A DNA stretch of 64,000 nt, from IMG/VR virus record IMGVR_UViG_3300010338_000575; one strand, given 5' to 3'. The translations under genes and the position numbers were made by a program. The notes under the pieces were generated by a model. It saw nothing but the letters and a program-made list of their open reading frames with translations, made no database searches and was not told the origin of the DNA. Source of the stretch: a virus. Lineage: Duplodnaviria > Caudoviricetes. This document shows positions 3,640 to 46,240 of the stretch, piece after piece. The first letter of the stretch is position 1; each line of letters starts with the position of its first letter.

Positions 3640-3771
3640 ATAAAACGTTTTGCGGCTTGGCGTAGTGGCGGATTTTTAGCACAAAAGTTCAATCGAAGAA
3701 CTGCACTTTGATTTAGCACTAAACTGTCATAAAAATGGTTCACCCGCCATTTCGCCAAACTGCTGTTGTGC
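3640..3771 (-). mobile_element. attC-like palindromic cassette-boundary element of Bacteroidota type
   Basis: GC-rich imperfect palindrome: arms 3652-3662/3753-3763 and 3666-3671/3744-3749. On the minus strand it is bounded by GCACAAC (R''-like) and GTT (R'-like, 3646-3644), directly downstream of the methyltransferase. Confidence 0.6.
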
Positions 3772-42189: not shown

Positions 42190-44169
42190 ATGAAAATTAA
42201 TTATGAATACGGTAGTAAAGATAGGCTTTTTGAAATGTTTCAAAAGGTAAATAAAATTAAATTAACTGAAGATAATATTAAAACAAATATATTAGATAGT
42301 GCGTTTAATGATTTAATTAATAATAAATTAAATATAAAACAAACCATCAATCAAATTAATGGTGATGAAAATTTAATCACCATTGTTTGTACTGATAATA
42401 AAGGTAATGATATTGTTTTTAAATTCAGATTAATTGGTTTGGAAATGGGACAAGATGATGTCTATACTGTTGATAAAGCCGAATTAATTGAATTTAATTT
42501 TAAATCAGAAACATATGAATTAAATATTCCTGAAGGGAATTTAATATTAAATGAATTTAATGGTAAATATGGCAACAATATTGTGAATATTGTTGCAGAT
42601 TATGTTGATTTTGAAAAAAATATTGTTGATACTTTAGATGAGACCATTAAAGAATTGGAACAAACATCAAATGTGGTTGATGATTATTTGAATGATGATG
42701 ATATTGATGATAATGATGATTTTGTTGATGATGAATATACCAATGATGAACTTAATAAGAAGGATGATGATATGTTTGAACTACCACAAGAATATAATTT
42801 AGATGATATTGAATTGGATGATGAGGACAATGAGGATAACATTACAATCGATAATTTTGAAGATTATATTAATAATCAAGATTTTGATAATAAATCAGAT
42901 GAATCAAATTTAACTTTATTAGCATATAACAATTTAATTGCTAAAAATAAAACATCAAAAAATCCGAATTATTCTCCAACCAAATTCGAAATTGATAAAG
43001 AAATTGAAAGAATTAAATCTGTTAATATTAAAAAAGAGCCTAATGATAAAAAAGTGAAGGGTAAGTTTGGCAATATGATGGCTAAGGGTAAAAAAAGAGT
43101 TTATCCATCATGGGCTGATATGTTTTTACCTGAAAATATTGATAAATTTAATATTTCGTTAGATAAAACACTTGTTAATGGTTTTAATGAACTCCCATTA
43201 AATCAAAGGTATGAAATATTTAATAATGCAAAAAAAATGTTAGATGATGAGTTAGGTGATAAAAAATATAAAATTTCAAATATCGAATATTTGGATTTGT
43301 TAGGGCGTAAAGTTGTTGATTTATATAAAAATATGTTGGAATTAATGAATGAGGTAGAAAAAAGTGGTGTGAATGATTTACCAACATCAACAATATACAA
43401 TACATTTCATAATTTAAGTGATGAGAGTAAAAAAATTGTCGTGGATCGGGCAAAGAAAAAATTAAAAATTAAATATGGTGATAGAATTCATTTTTTACCT
43501 AAAGATCGATATTTGAATGAATTAAGTCGTGAAATTGTAATAATAGTTAGAAATGGATTGGAGTTAATGAATGAAAATGAAAATGATATTGAACAAATTA
43601 TTAACAATAAAAAAAAAGTCGGTGAAATTTTGATTGGTGGTAAGGGTGATTATAAACAACCAACAGAATTTAATCGTGAACAAATAATAAAAGGGTTAAA
43701 AGTTGAAAAAGAACATACAAACGACCCAATGGTAGCGATTGAAATTGTTATGGATCATTTAACCGAAGACCCTGAATATTACACAAGAAAAGAAACACCT
43801 GAACAAAGTGCACAATATGGTGCTGCGATGGATGTTGATGATGATTCCGATGATGAATTGACAAAAATTATTTTGGGTTATAAACCACACAATGTTGGCG
43901 AATCTGTTGATGTTGATGTAGATACTATGTATAGAACAATTGATAGTGTTATAAATTCGATTAGAAACAAGGTTGAAAAAAACGGATACACTGTTGATGA
44001 GCGTGATTTATGGAAAGAATTTAAAAATAATGTAATTAATGTTGGTGATAGTAAATTAAGTATAATCCCATTATATAAAAATAATCAAGTAAGTAAAATT
44101 AAATTAATGGTATTAGTTAAGAGATTGGATAGTGGTATTTATGAGTTAAAAACAAAGTTTTTTATTTAG
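42190..44169 (+). CDS. large acidic protein with a DUF5661-like domain and an internal repeat
   Basis: 'GLKVEKEHT.D...A.EI.MDHL.EDPEYY'; two ~60-aa repeats each ending 'LELMNE'. Confidence 0.6.
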   Translation: MKINYEYGSKDRLFEMFQKVNKIKLTEDNIKTNILDSAFNDLINNKLNIKQTINQINGDENLITIVCTDNKGNDIVFKFRLIGLEMGQDDVYTVDKAELIEFNFKSETYELNIPEGNLILNEFNGKYGNNIVNIVADYVDFEKNIVDTLDETIKELEQTSNVVDDYLNDDDIDDNDDFVDDEYTNDELNKKDDDMFELPQEYNLDDIELDDEDNEDNITIDNFEDYINNQDFDNKSDESNLTLLAYNNLIAKNKTSKNPNYSPTKFEIDKEIERIKSVNIKKEPNDKKVKGKFGNMMAKGKKRVYPSWADMFLPENIDKFNISLDKTLVNGFNELPLNQRYEIFNNAKKMLDDELGDKKYKISNIEYLDLLGRKVVDLYKNMLELMNEVEKSGVNDLPTSTIYNTFHNLSDESKKIVVDRAKKKLKIKYGDRIHFLPKDRYLNELSREIVIIVRNGLELMNENENDIEQIINNKKKVGEILIGGKGDYKQPTEFNREQIIKGLKVEKEHTNDPMVAIEIVMDHLTEDPEYYTRKETPEQSAQYGAAMDVDDDSDDELTKIILGYKPHNVGESVDVDVDTMYRTIDSVINSIRNKVEKNGYTVDERDLWKEFKNNVINVGDSKLSIIPLYKNNQVSKIKLMVLVKRLDSGIYELKTKFFI

Positions 44170-44245
44170 ATTTAAATTTTTTAATTATGGTAAAGAAATT
44201 CATGCTGATTATAATGCTGCTTTAAATATTGCAAAATCAAAATAA
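44168..44245 (+). pseudogene. C-terminal remnant of a Cas12f/TnpB-family gene (RuvC-III)
   Basis: Frame reads RFKFFNYGKEIHADYNAALNIAKSK*; (H/N)ADxNAAxNI is the TnpB/Cas12f RuvC-III signature. No start codon; in-frame stop at 44147-44149. Confidence 0.8.
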
Positions 44246-44257
44246 TTTTTAAAAAAG

Positions 44258-44288
44258 TTGTTTATTTTTAATATTATTATTATATTTG
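44258..44288 (+). promoter_or_regulatory. Bacteroidota sigmaA-type promoter for the tracrRNA/array
   Basis: TTG at 44258-44260 and TATATTTG at 44281-44288. Confidence 0.65.
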
Positions 44289-44294
44289 TTGTGT

Positions 44295-44491
44295 TAAATG
44301 TTCTTATTTGAATTTAAGGTTCTTTGATATTTTGAATGGTATCCCGATTTGATATTTTATTGGGATGTGAGGGTGGTTGTGCACTCCTAAAGTGAGGTCT
44401 GCTATAATATAATTGTAATAAAAAAATCACTTAATAGCATTAGTACACTCACTAAATATCGTTCTTTTTTTGATTTAAATCTAAATGCAAC
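44295..44491 (+). ncRNA. Cas12f-type tracrRNA / omegaRNA-like scaffold
   Basis: Hairpin 44370-44388 exposes loop GTTGTG, complementary to repeat 3' end CACAAC. ATATCGTTC (44456-44464) pairs with repeat nt 21-29. Further stems: 44341-47/44360-66, 44391-96/44448-53, 44400-05/44434-39. Ends are approximate. Confidence 0.75.
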
Positions 44492-44523
44492 AATCACTAT
44501 TACAATACTTTATATTGTGGTAT

Positions 44524-44757
44524 GGTGTATCTGATATGCATTTGAACGGTATACACAACGGTTTTACTAAGGTTGAGAAAATCTTCATAGGTGTATCTGA
44601 TATGCATTTGAACGGTATACACAACTGTGGCATTGTATTTATCATAGTTAACTTGGGTGTATCTGATATGCATTTGAACGGTATACACAACCTGAACTTG
44701 TTGGATTGTATTCCAAATGTCGGTGTATCTGATATGCATTTGAACGGTATACACAAC
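44524..44757 (+). CRISPR. mini CRISPR array: 4 identical 36-bp repeats, 3 spacers of 30 bp
   Basis: Repeat GGTGTATCTGATATGCATTTGAACGGTATACACAAC at 44524, 44590, 44656 and 44722; unique spacers at 44560-89, 44626-55 and 44692-721. Confidence 0.97.
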
Positions 44758-44765
44758 ACTAATTA

Positions 44766-44800
44766 AATAAAAAGGACTACTAAATGTAGTCTTTTTTATT
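44766..44800 (+). terminator. intrinsic terminator closing the CRISPR transcript
   Basis: AATAAAAAGGACTAC-TAAAT-GTAGTCTTTTTTATT. Confidence 0.8.
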
Positions 44801-44830
44801 TGTCGGGTATTTATTATAAAAAGAATTAAA

Positions 44831-46240
44831 ATGTCAATATACAGGTCATATTTTTTAAAAAATAATACATTAATTAGTAATAATGTAACAAACAATTCAC
44901 AAAATCCTGTGACTGAAATATCATACGGTGGTTTTGGTGAGATTATTACAAGATTTATATTTGATATTGATTTTTCTAATTTACAAAATAGAATTCAAAA
45001 AGGTATTATCAATCCTCAAAGAATAAAAAAACACATATTACACATGACTAATACGATTAGTTATGCAAAGGAATATGTTGGTAAAAAATCATATTCACAA
45101 TCAATAGATAGAGCAAGTAATTTTAGTTTAGAAATTTTTAATATCAAACAAAATTGGGATGAGGGTACTGGTTATGATTTTATCTATACAACCGATTTAT
45201 CTAATAATGTGAAGCCACAGGCATCAAATTGGTATTCAGCAACAACATTATCACAATGGGAAAATTATGGTGCTTATATTAGTGGTGTTAGTGAAATTAT
45301 TGGTGTTCAAAGATTTGAAAAGGGTAATGAGGATATTCATATTGATATTACTGATTATGTTAATCAAAGACTATTTGGTACTGGTTTAACTGAAAATGTT
45401 GTTTATAGTGGAATTTCATATGGGTTGGGTATTAAATACACAAATGATTTCGAAAATTTAAAAACATATAATATACAAGCAGTTGCGTTTCATGCGAAAA
45501 ATACCAATACTTGGTTTGAACCGTATGTTGAAACAATAATTGATGATGAAATTTCTGATGATAGAAATTATTTTTATTTAGATAAGGAAAATGATTTGTA
45601 TCTATATATTAATGTTGGTGGATTTCCACAAGATATTGTTGTGAATTCAGTTAATATTTACGATAATGAAGATAAACTAATTATGACATTTACTGGTGAT
45701 TCAGTAATAAATGTATCAAAAGGTGTTTATAAGGTGTCATTTTTTGTTAATTCTAATGATTATCCAGATGGTATTATATTTAATGATGTGTGGGATTTAA
45801 CAATTAATGGGAAAAATAGTAAATATTTTGGTAATTTTTATTTAATTGATAATTCACAATACATTAATATTAATCGTGATAATAGTTTAGTATTATCTAA
45901 TTATCATTTTAATTTTTGGGGTATTGGTGAAAAAGAAAAAATAAGAGCAGGTAATATTAGAAAAATAAAAATAAATATTAAAGAATTTTATCCAAATCAA
46001 AATAAATTCATACCTTTAGATATTGAATATAGGTTATATACTACTATTGGTGATAAATGGGAAATTGATATAATTCCATTTACAAAGGTTAATAGAACAA
46101 ATAGTGGTTATGAATTTGATTTAGATACATCATGGTTAATACCACAGGATTATTATCTTCAATTAAGGCTAAGAGATGGATATTATTACGAGGATAAAAA
46201 ACCAATATCGTTTACCATAGTTTCAGATAATATCTTATGA
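44831..46240 (+). CDS. putative virion structural protein
   Basis: 469 aa, beta-rich, 'WDEGTGYD'; late motif at 44807-44814. Confidence 0.55.
   Translation: MSIYRSYFLKNNTLISNNVTNNSQNPVTEISYGGFGEIITRFIFDIDFSNLQNRIQKGIINPQRIKKHILHMTNTISYAKEYVGKKSYSQSIDRASNFSLEIFNIKQNWDEGTGYDFIYTTDLSNNVKPQASNWYSATTLSQWENYGAYISGVSEIIGVQRFEKGNEDIHIDITDYVNQRLFGTGLTENVVYSGISYGLGIKYTNDFENLKTYNIQAVAFHAKNTNTWFEPYVETIIDDEISDDRNYFYLDKENDLYLYINVGGFPQDIVVNSVNIYDNEDKLIMTFTGDSVINVSKGVYKVSFFVNSNDYPDGIIFNDVWDLTINGKNSKYFGNFYLIDNSQYININRDNSLVLSNYHFNFWGIGEKEKIRAGNIRKIKINIKEFYPNQNKFIPLDIEYRLYTTIGDKWEIDIIPFTKVNRTNSGYEFDLDTSWLIPQDYYLQLRLRDGYYYEDKKPISFTIVSDNIL

What the first reader, a model, noticed from the sequence alone, without database searches (positions are those of the whole stretch)
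44168..44800. Orphan Cas12f-type guide cassette: effector gene deleted; promoter, tracrRNA, array and terminator intact
Seen: a ~25-codon stub ending HADYNAALNIAKSK*, a TTG..TATATTTG promoter, a ~200-nt structured RNA, four identical repeats with three spacers, then a terminator. The RNA carries two separate anti-repeats. The loop of hairpin 44370-44388 is exactly GTTGTG, complementary to the repeat 3' end CACAAC. ATATCGTTC (44456-64) pairs 9/9 (one G-U) with repeat nt 21-29. Established: xADxNAAxNI is the TnpB/Cas12f RuvC-III motif, and this split loop-plus-duplex repeat pairing is how type V-F tracrRNAs work. From memory, GTGAGGGTGGTTGTGCACTCCTAAAGTGAG..TGCT also resembles the Un1Cas12f1 tracrRNA core. 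Inference: the RNA half shows no decay while the protein is almost entirely gone. The phage may therefore supply guides in trans to a Cas12f encoded elsewhere in its genome, by the host (Bacteroidota carry Cas12f-like proteins, including nuclease-dead regulators) or by a co-infecting element, or may use the RNA as a decoy.
Basis: partly seen in the sequence, partly recalled or inferred. Interest (0 to 1): 0.92.

Follow-up and report, generated by a model that had tools for sequence, protein, structure and literature searches.

The report
Second guide cassette of phage Cas12f
A jumbo phage carries a partial extra copy of its own miniature CRISPR-Cas12f locus (guide RNAs but no nuclease gene), and its spacers match the same rival phage as the main locus, so it is a spare guide array rather than an orphan whose effector was deleted.

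Summary
Window 44183-44757 contains a 20-codon Cas12f C-terminal remnant, a Bacteroidota-type promoter, a tracrRNA with two anti-repeats, and four identical 36-nt repeats with three 30-nt spacers.

The 575-nt block is an insertion, and a sibling genome has the exact empty site. It differs at only 1-2 of 378 positions from the 3' part of an intact locus (492-aa Cas12f, tracrRNA, 7-8-repeat array).

That intact locus belongs to the same phage. Promoter-motif spacing places it about 2.4 kb beyond the end of this roughly 177-kb contig, some 103 kb downstream on the same strand.

Across six phage loci whose Cas12f is 49-62% identical, both anti-repeats co-vary with the repeat.

Spacers from both arrays match one unrelated siphovirus contig, several at 30/30, and six of six protospacers have a 5'-TTN flank.

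The most likely role is a satellite guide array served in trans by the phage's own Cas12f against a competitor. Expression is untested. In most sampled genomes a methyltransferase insertion has destroyed the cassette, so selection on it looks weak.

This is a known kind of system (huge-phage type V-F CRISPR, distant secondary array). The scan has not noted it on other DNA.

The parts
42190..44169 (+). Backbone gene upstream of the insertion (659 aa, DUF5661). It is not a Cas12f.
   Evidence: Pfam finds DUF5661 only and PHROGs finds nothing. Homologs sit directly next to the downstream gene in relatives.
44183..44757 (+). Inserted cassette (575 nt, boundaries +/-1 nt): a partial copy of the phage's own type V-F locus.
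   Evidence: The empty-site allele L020 reads straight across the two flanks. The first 378 nt of the shared block (44182-44559) differ from the intact loci L016-L019, L043 and L046 at only 1-2 positions. The left junction is confirmed in independent contigs L060 and L061.
44183..44245 (+). cas12f 3' remnant: 20 codons (RuvC-III motif HADYNAALNI) plus the stop codon. It has no start codon and no zinc finger.
   Evidence: tblastn with P0001 gives 20/20 identity at E 1.5e-6 and is the only significant hit in the window. The best PDB matches are Cas12f C-termini.
44258..44288 (+). Promoter-like elements: TTG (44258-44260) and TAnnTTTG (44281-44288), with Bacteroidota-type -33/-7 spacing.
   Evidence: Read directly from the sequence. 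The -7 box is conserved upstream of the tracrRNA in related loci. Function was not tested.
44295..44471 (+). tracrRNA (5' end approximate). It contains a conserved 5' block (44319-44330), a variable hairpin (44340-44367), a hairpin carrying the short anti-repeat loop (44371-44386, loop 44376-44381), a closing stem (44391-44396 with 44448-44453), the long anti-repeat (44456-44464) and a U-tract (44465-44471).
   Evidence: Alignment A1 of seven loci. Pair counts show all four helices supported, and three of them contain compensatory changes. The variable hairpin folds in 6 of 7 loci with different sequences.
44472..44523 (+). Leader.
   Evidence: The 40 nt upstream of repeat 1 are identical to the leader of the intact locus.
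44524..44757 (+). CRISPR array: 4 repeats of 36 nt and spacers s1 (44560-44589), s2 (44626-44655) and s3 (44692-44721).
   Evidence: Spacer s1 matches siphovirus contig L051 at 30/30 and s2 at 27/30, both with a 5' TTN flank. Spacers s2 and s3 are shared with L002, whose leader-side spacers differ.
44765..44801 (+). Intrinsic-terminator hairpin plus T-run. It belongs to the backbone and now also ends the array transcript.
   Evidence: Inverted repeat I3. The hairpin is present unchanged in the empty-site allele L020.
44831..46240 (+). Backbone gene downstream of the insertion (469 aa, no family match).
   Evidence: It was used to fetch relatives and allelic contigs.

Best explanation
Window 44183-44757 is a satellite guide cassette. 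It is a very recent partial duplicate of the jumbo phage's own type V-F CRISPR locus: the last 62 nt of cas12f, the tracrRNA promoter and gene, the leader and an array. It is inserted into an intergenic site about 103 kb from the intact locus.

The inferred mechanism is as follows. The host RNA polymerase transcribes the tracrRNA and the pre-crRNA. The repeat pairs with the tracrRNA through a 9-bp duplex and a 6-bp loop pseudoknot. The RNAs then load in trans into the 492-aa Cas12f made from the primary locus. The complex cuts a competing siphovirus at protospacers carrying a 5'-TTN PAM, which widens the phage's spacer set.

Shown here: the origin of the cassette, the insertion polymorphism, the tracrRNA-repeat co-variation, the shared target and the PAM.

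Inferred: transcription, loading into Cas12f, cleavage and any benefit to the phage.
For: 1. The stub is 100% identical to the C-terminus of P0001, a 492-aa protein. P0001 matches Pfam Cas12f1-like_TNB at 3e-20 and solved Cas12f structures at 3e-40 over its full length. Its RuvC D/E/D residues and zinc-finger cysteines are aligned and present.

2. Its loci carry the same tracrRNA, leader and repeat. They differ from the window at 1-2 of 378 nt, and both differences turn a G-C pair into a G-U pair in a stem.

3. The empty-site allele L020 encodes a 100% identical neighbouring protein. Relatives at 59-64% identity have only 130-300 nt at this site.

4. The intact locus lies in the same phage:
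- Its PIF1 helicase shares 157 of 180 words with a stretch of this genome.
- Three promoter motifs in L015 are spaced 3816 and 773 nt apart, exactly as a first-stage note records for this genome.
- This places the contig end 2.4 kb before cas12f.
- All 13 contigs that carry the adjacent 311-aa gene have cas12f next to it.
- Contigs from k-mer assemblers stop exactly k or k-1 nt into the shared block.

5. The anti-repeats co-vary with the repeats in six loci.

6. The satellite spacers s1 (30/30) and s2 (27/30), plus a partial L002 spacer (15/15), hit the same 18-kb siphovirus contig as four primary-array spacers (three at 30/30 and one at 28/30). Six of six scorable protospacers carry TT at positions -3 and -2. 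The chance expectation for this is 3e-6.

7. Spacers on the leader side differ between two isolates while the trailer spacers are shared. The match quality falls from new to old spacers.
Against:
- The window's own contig ends before the cas12f gene. Its presence in this exact genome is inferred from collinearity and from population data.
- The cassette is dispensable. One sibling lacks it. In the majority of sampled contigs an insertion of at least 1.9 kb carrying methyltransferase genes has replaced 44409 to about 44648, which removes the long anti-repeat, the leader and two repeats.
- The extra tracrRNA copy is not needed for use in trans.
- Spacer turnover could come from recombination with primary arrays rather than from acquisition in place.
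- No adaptation genes were seen near either locus.
Confidence: 0.65

Rival explanations
1. The cassette is a neutral recombination scar. An illegitimate recombination event copied part of the CRISPR locus into a variable intergenic hotspot. The copy is too young to have decayed and contributes nothing.
For: - Only 1-2 nt differ from the source copy.
- The site is polymorphic: an empty allele exists, and a methyltransferase insertion disrupts the cassette in most contigs.
- Junctions show about 1 nt of microhomology, typical of illegitimate recombination.
Against: - The satellite array has its own spacers, absent from the primary arrays sampled. Its newest spacer is a perfect PAM-flanked match to the same competitor phage.
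- Leader-side spacers differ between isolates.
- With an identical promoter, tracrRNA and repeats, and the nuclease present in the same genome, it would be hard for the cassette not to be used.
Confidence: 0.25
2. The guides are made for a nuclease outside the phage: a host Cas12f, a host Cas13b (whose repeats are similar), or one from a co-infecting element.
For: - The repeat is 25-27/36 identical to Bacteroidales type VI-B repeats. These have the same 36/30-nt architecture and sit next to Cas13b.
- Huge phages without effectors have been proposed to borrow host Cas proteins (PMC7162821).
Against: - The cassette carries a tracrRNA whose two anti-repeats co-vary with the repeat, which is a Cas12f feature (PMC11246509).
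- The exact cognate Cas12f is in the same phage.
- No P0001 relative was found in three Bacteroidales genomes that have similar repeats.
- Relatives of P0001 at 49% identity or more that were looked up all sit in phage-like contexts.
Confidence: 0.05
3. The cassette is an RNA decoy or anti-CRISPR: its repeat or tracrRNA soaks up a Cas protein.
For: Phage solitary repeats can act as RNA anti-CRISPRs (PMC10651486).
Against: - The array has real spacers with PAM-flanked targets in another phage.
- The only matching effector is the phage's own.
- No host Cas12f of this family was found.
Confidence: 0.03
4. The cassette is an assembly artefact: contigs were wrongly joined across the repeated tracrRNA or array sequence.
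For: The shared block is repeated within the genome, and short-read assemblers break there.
Against: - The left junction is seen in two independent assemblies.
- The right junction is seen in more than eight contigs from different samples and assemblers.
Confidence: 0.02

Closest known systems
Type V-F CRISPR-Cas (Cas12f/Cas14) systems of huge phages (Al-Shayeb et al. 2020, PMC7162821)
   Same: - A phage-borne miniature Cas12f with intact catalytic residues.
- No adaptation genes nearby.
- Compact arrays of 4-8 repeats.
- Spacers against structural genes of another phage.
   Different: Here a second, effector-less tracrRNA-plus-array copy lies about 103 kb from the cas gene and is polymorphic in the population. 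The repeats resemble Bacteroidales VI-B repeats.
Solved Cas12f1 guide RNAs (AsCas12f, CnCas12f, Un1Cas12f1; PMC11246509)
   Same: - The tracrRNA pairs with the repeat through a long repeat/anti-repeat stem plus a 5-7-bp short stem that forms a pseudoknot.
- The PAM is 5' and T-rich.
- The protein aligns to solved Cas12f structures at E values from 3e-40 to 3e-20.
   Different: The long duplex is only 7-9 bp. The tracrRNA sequence is unrelated to any Rfam family. Dimer formation and cleavage were not tested.
Orphan or secondary CRISPR arrays served in trans by a distant cas locus (PMC7145637), and viral mini-arrays (PMC11656645)
   Same: An array without adjacent cas genes, whose repeats are identical to those of a Cas system present in the same cell, and which is used in conflicts between viruses.
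   Different: - The effector is the virus's own, not the host's.
- The cassette carries along a tracrRNA gene and a cas gene stub, which reveal its origin.
- The target is an unrelated phage rather than a close relative.
RNA anti-CRISPRs (Racrs, PMC10651486)
   Same: Repeat-containing non-coding units in a phage genome without cas genes next to them.
   Different: Racrs are solitary repeats that mimic host repeats and have no working spacers. This unit has spacers with PAM-flanked targets and a cognate tracrRNA.

Membership tests
Type V-F CRISPR-Cas (Cas12f) | An effector of 400-700 aa with a split RuvC domain (D, E, D) and a zinc-finger TNB domain | tested here: met
   This is met for the source locus: P0001 is 492 aa, matches Pfam PF07282 at 3e-20 and PDB 9nzr at 3e-40 over its full length, and its catalytic and Cys residues align. 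Inside the window only 20 C-terminal residues remain.
Type V-F CRISPR-Cas (Cas12f) | A tracrRNA that pairs with the repeat through a long stem plus a short pseudoknot stem | tested here: met
   A 9-bp and a 6-bp pairing are both supported by compensatory changes across six loci. The architecture is as described in PMC11246509.
Type V-F CRISPR-Cas (Cas12f) | A CRISPR array whose transcripts read repeat then spacer, with a 5' PAM on the protospacer | tested here: met
   Six of six protospacers in L051 carry TT at -3/-2 on the 5' side in the repeat-to-spacer orientation. This is in silico evidence only.
Type V-F CRISPR-Cas (Cas12f) | RNA-guided double-stranded DNA cleavage by a Cas12f dimer | not testable with these tools
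   This needs biochemistry or an interference assay.
Type V-F CRISPR-Cas (Cas12f) | An adaptation module (cas1, cas2, cas4) in the locus, present in some V-F1 loci | tested here: not met
   No such genes were called within the roughly 3-8 kb held on either side of the intact locus. This is usual for phage systems (PMC7162821). The whole genome was not available.
Secondary array used in trans by a cas locus in the same genome | Repeat and leader identical to those of a complete locus elsewhere in the same genome | tested here: inconclusive
   The repeat and the 40 nt of leader next to it are identical. Location in the same genome is inferred from the PIF1 word match and exact motif spacing, but the contig ends 2.4 kb before cas12f.
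Secondary array used in trans by a cas locus in the same genome | Transcription of the array and loading of its crRNAs into the effector | not tested
RNA anti-CRISPR (Racr) | A solitary repeat unit that mimics a host repeat and has no targeting spacer | tested here: not met
   There are four repeats and three spacers, two of which have PAM-flanked targets. The exact repeat is absent from 185,579 species genomes.

The most novel reading that the evidence does not exclude
Phage type V-F loci may spread inside a genome as self-contained 'guide cassettes' (promoter, tracrRNA, leader, array). These cassettes would keep gaining leader-side spacers against competitors although the phage encodes no adaptation genes. 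That would imply that host Cas1-Cas2 (for example from Bacteroidales systems with similar 36-nt repeats) services the phage arrays. The array site would also act as a hotspot where counter-defence genes such as methyltransferases swap in.
Probability: 0.25. Interest if true: 0.6.

Novelty: new member of a known kind. Interest (0 to 1): 0.45.

Why it matters
- It turns an apparent puzzle (guides without a nuclease) into a documented case of how phage CRISPR loci evolve. The case covers partial duplication, a distant array probably used in trans, leader-side spacer turnover, and loss through insertion of other accessory genes, all visible as alleles within one phage population.
- It defines a clade of jumbo-phage Cas12f proteins of 475-492 aa. 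For this clade the tracrRNA is supported by co-variation, a TTN PAM is predicted and a natural target is known. This gives a ready starting point for reconstitution as a compact editor.
- It offers a system for studying phage-against-phage CRISPR warfare in Bacteroidales-rich digesters.

Tried and rejected
**Searches that found nothing**
- Rfam on the region gave only chance-level hits.
- Nucleotide and protein searches of the INPHARED phage collection found no match for the flanks, the stub or the array.
- The exact repeat is absent from the metagenome and genome collections.
- The tracrRNA core and a degenerate RuvC-III pattern are absent from IMG/VR.
- Spacers s2 and s3 have no exact 22-nt match in IMG/VR outside the array itself.
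- No P0001 homolog was found in five relatives' records, including a complete 334-kb genome.
- A look-up of earlier scan findings for look-alike stretches in other genomes returned nothing relevant.

- No whole genome is held for this window.

**Ideas rejected**
- The idea that the upstream 659-aa ORF is a frameshifted Cas12f was rejected. It has no TnpB or Cas12 domain and no cysteines near its end, and the stub's reading frame has many stops upstream.
- The FKFFNY residues resemble the FKCRAC zinc knuckle of AsCas12f, but this is coincidental, because identity to the true source starts only at NYGKE.
- Thermodynamic support for the tracrRNA from one sequence is absent (z = -0.83). Only the comparative evidence counts.
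- Cas12p ('Cas12 hacker', bioRxiv 10.1101/2025.01.20.633832) is a different family. It matches P0001 at E 5e-4, in the TNB region only.
- The 29-nt similarity between L019:91-119 and window 3740-3768 was inspected and looked unremarkable.
Full report
**What is in the window**

Positions 44524-44757 hold four identical 36-nt repeats separated by three 30-nt spacers. Shuffled sequence gives no match.

Upstream, the frame ending at 44245 reads NYGKEIHADYNAALNIAKSK*. Between the stub and the array lie three things:
- a TTG and TAnnTTTG pair (44258-44260 and 44281-44288);
- about 175 nt containing a hairpin whose loop GTTGTG (44376-44381) complements the last six bases of the repeat;
- ATATCGTTC (44456-44464), which complements repeat nt 21-29 and is followed by a run of seven T.

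The stub is 20 codons. The terminator hairpin at 44765-44801 belongs to the phage backbone.

The surrounding genes show a large phage: a DnaB-like helicase, a UvsX-like recombinase, a gp32-like protein, a 5'-3' exonuclease and glycosyltransferases. Its relatives in IMG/VR reach 334 kb.

**Where the stub comes from**

A word-based protein search with the stub, read through one stop codon, returned a single protein, P0001 (492 aa). Its last 20 residues are identical to the stub.

P0001 is a Cas12f:
- Pfam Cas12f1-like_TNB matches at 3e-20.
- NCBIfam guided_TnpB matches at 4e-49.
- Solved Cas12f structures match over the full length at 3e-40 (9nzr, 9nzo), at about 1e-36 (CnCas12f, AsCas12f) and at 3e-21 (Un1Cas12f1).
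- The RuvC Asp, Glu and Asp residues and both CxxC pairs are aligned.

In its contigs (L016, L019, L043, L046) the gene is followed by the same tracrRNA, the same leader, and arrays of 7-8 copies of the same repeat with other spacers. Over window 44182-44559 these loci differ from the window at one or two positions (44340 and 44385). Both are C-to-T changes that turn a G-C stem pair into G-U.

**The cassette is an insertion, not a deletion**

- Relatives with 59-64% identical flanking proteins keep the same gene order, with only 130-300 nt between the two flanking genes and no array.
- A contig whose downstream protein is 100% identical (L020) reads directly from the T-run at 44182 into the sequence that follows 44757. 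It is the exact empty site.
- The inserted block is therefore 44183-44757. It begins 62 nt before the cas12f stop codon and ends at the last base of a repeat, with about 1 nt of junction ambiguity on each side.
- The left junction is reproduced in two independent assemblies (L060, L061). The right junction is reproduced in many. An assembly artefact is thus excluded.

**The intact locus belongs to the same phage**

- Genes flanking cas12f (PIF1 helicase, RNA ligase, a 311-aa protein) have 52-62% homologs in the same relatives as the window's genes.
- The PIF1 gene shares 157 of 180 short words with a stretch of this very genome that starts 67.6 kb beyond the window's end.
- The first-stage note on that stretch lists copies of an ECF-type promoter motif. 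I found the same motif in L015 at 2108, 5151 (variant) and 5924.
- This mapping puts the end of the roughly 177-kb genome piece at about L015 position 7576. That is 2.4 kb short of cas12f (L015 10001-11479). It explains why no first-stage note reports an intact effector.
- All 13 contigs that carry the adjacent 311-aa gene have cas12f next to it.
- Several samples hold both loci: 3300010347, 3300009704 and DRR438537.
- Contigs from a k=141 assembler stop exactly 141 nt into the shared block. Logan contigs stop 30 nt into it. This is expected if the block has two genomic contexts.
- By this mapping the intact locus lies about 103 kb downstream of the cassette, on the same strand.

**The tracrRNA is real**

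Proteins 49-62% identical to P0001 occur on other phage-like contigs of up to 365 kb. Most of these loci are followed by 36-nt repeats ending GGTAnnnACAAC.

In an alignment running from the stop codon to the first repeat (A1), the loop anti-repeat and the repeat end change together. The combinations are GTTGTG with CACAAC, GTTGTA with TACAAC, and GTTGCA with TGCAAC. The long anti-repeat also follows the repeat.

Counting 26 pairs in four helices gives these results:
- 95.5% of cells are paired, against 29-54% when partners are slid.
- Seven pairs change on both sides. Only 1 of 500 shuffles reaches this.
- The covariation score is exceeded by 0 of 500 shuffles.

A variable 5' hairpin keeps its position with unrelated sequences in six of seven loci. 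This two-part pairing is the published Cas12f1 geometry (PMC11246509).

Folding energy from one sequence alone is unremarkable (z = -0.83), and Rfam has no family for this RNA.

**What the spacers target**

Spacer s1 has one match in IMG/VR, at 30/30, in an 18-kb contig. Against the whole contig (L051) the matches are as follows:

| Spacer | Array | Match |
|---|---|---|
| s1 | satellite (window) | 30/30 |
| s2 | satellite (window, L002) | 27/30 |
| partial edge spacer of L002 | satellite | 15/15 |
| L016 s2 | primary | 30/30 |
| L016 s5 | primary | 30/30 |
| L019 s4 | primary | 30/30 |
| shared trailer spacer (L016 s6 = L019 s7) | primary | 28/30 |

Shuffled 30-mers reach at most 22 matches.

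All six protospacers that can be scored have TT at positions -3 and -2. The TT dinucleotide frequency in the contig is 0.119, which gives about 3e-6 for six of six.

The target encodes a large terminase subunit, portal, head protease, major head protein and tape-measure protein. It is unrelated to the jumbo phage. Relatives of its terminase at 41-49% identity occur in 4 of 401 Bacteroidales genomes.

**Population variation at the site**

- The window and L002 share s2 and s3 but differ on the leader side.
- Most other contigs carry a third allele. After window 44408 the tracrRNA is cut by an insertion of at least 1.9 kb. The insertion holds a structured-looking stretch and two DNA methyltransferase genes, and it rejoins 7 nt before the end of s2. 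Two repeats and s3 remain.
- The cassette is therefore young and dispensable, and it is often destroyed.

**Reading**

The structural history is well supported: a partial duplicate of the phage's own locus, inserted at a variable site.

Function in trans is the simplest expectation, because the promoter, tracrRNA, leader and repeats are identical to the working locus and the spacers hit the same enemy. It remains inferred.

The repeat is 25-27/36 identical to Bacteroidales type VI-B repeats that sit next to Cas13b. Together with the TAnnTTTG boxes, this points to a Bacteroidales host. It could also hint at borrowed adaptation machinery, but that is speculation.

Huge-phage V-F systems without adaptation genes, with compact arrays and with spacers against other phages are already described (PMC7162821, PMC11656645). 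This is therefore a new member of a known kind, with an instructive evolutionary twist.

Noticed in passing
L016:2990-3265 (primary locus, between the 311-aa gene and cas12f; outside the window): A stretch of about 270 nt directly after a TAnnTTTG box folds far better than shuffles (MFE -82.3 against -52.4 kcal/mol, z = -6.9). It has no Rfam match and is not present upstream of cas12f in the homologous loci. It may be an unknown structured RNA.
   Followed up: partly
L060:3720-3977 and L061 (allele 3 of window 44409-44648): The insertion that disrupts the satellite tracrRNA begins with about 260 nt of GC-richer, structured sequence (z = -3.5, no Rfam match). An N6/N4 methyltransferase gene follows, and further on a 172-aa NPPY methyltransferase (L021:97-615). 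The first methyltransferase is 71-82% identical in DNA to genes next to the Cas12f mini-array of another phage (L033).
   Followed up: partly
L031:4429-4760 and L037:4441-4760: Some homologous phage Cas12f loci keep the tracrRNA but have only a single repeat followed by unique sequence. This would give one fixed guide, reminiscent of a TnpB omega-RNA.
   Followed up: no
window 44472-44523: The leader contains a conserved element ending in CAAC (ACAACCAC-like in relatives) about 30 nt before repeat 1. It may be a degenerate old repeat, as another first-stage note suggested.
   Followed up: no
L062 (G013:C7:81178-82752): A prophage-like terminase in a Bacteroidales genome, 49% identical to that of the target siphovirus, is interrupted by 13 in-frame TAG codons. 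This suggests a TAG-recoded phage.
   Followed up: no
window 44524-44559 (repeat): The repeat has complementary ends: nt 2-7 (GUGUAU) pair with nt 28-33 (AUACAC). It shares 25-27 of 36 bases, the 36-nt length and the 30-nt spacer length with Bacteroidales Cas13b repeats.
   Followed up: partly
L019:91-119 and window 3740-3768: A 29-nt match (93% identity) links the region upstream of cas12f with the start of a methyltransferase-like ORF in the window. No meaning was found.
   Followed up: partly
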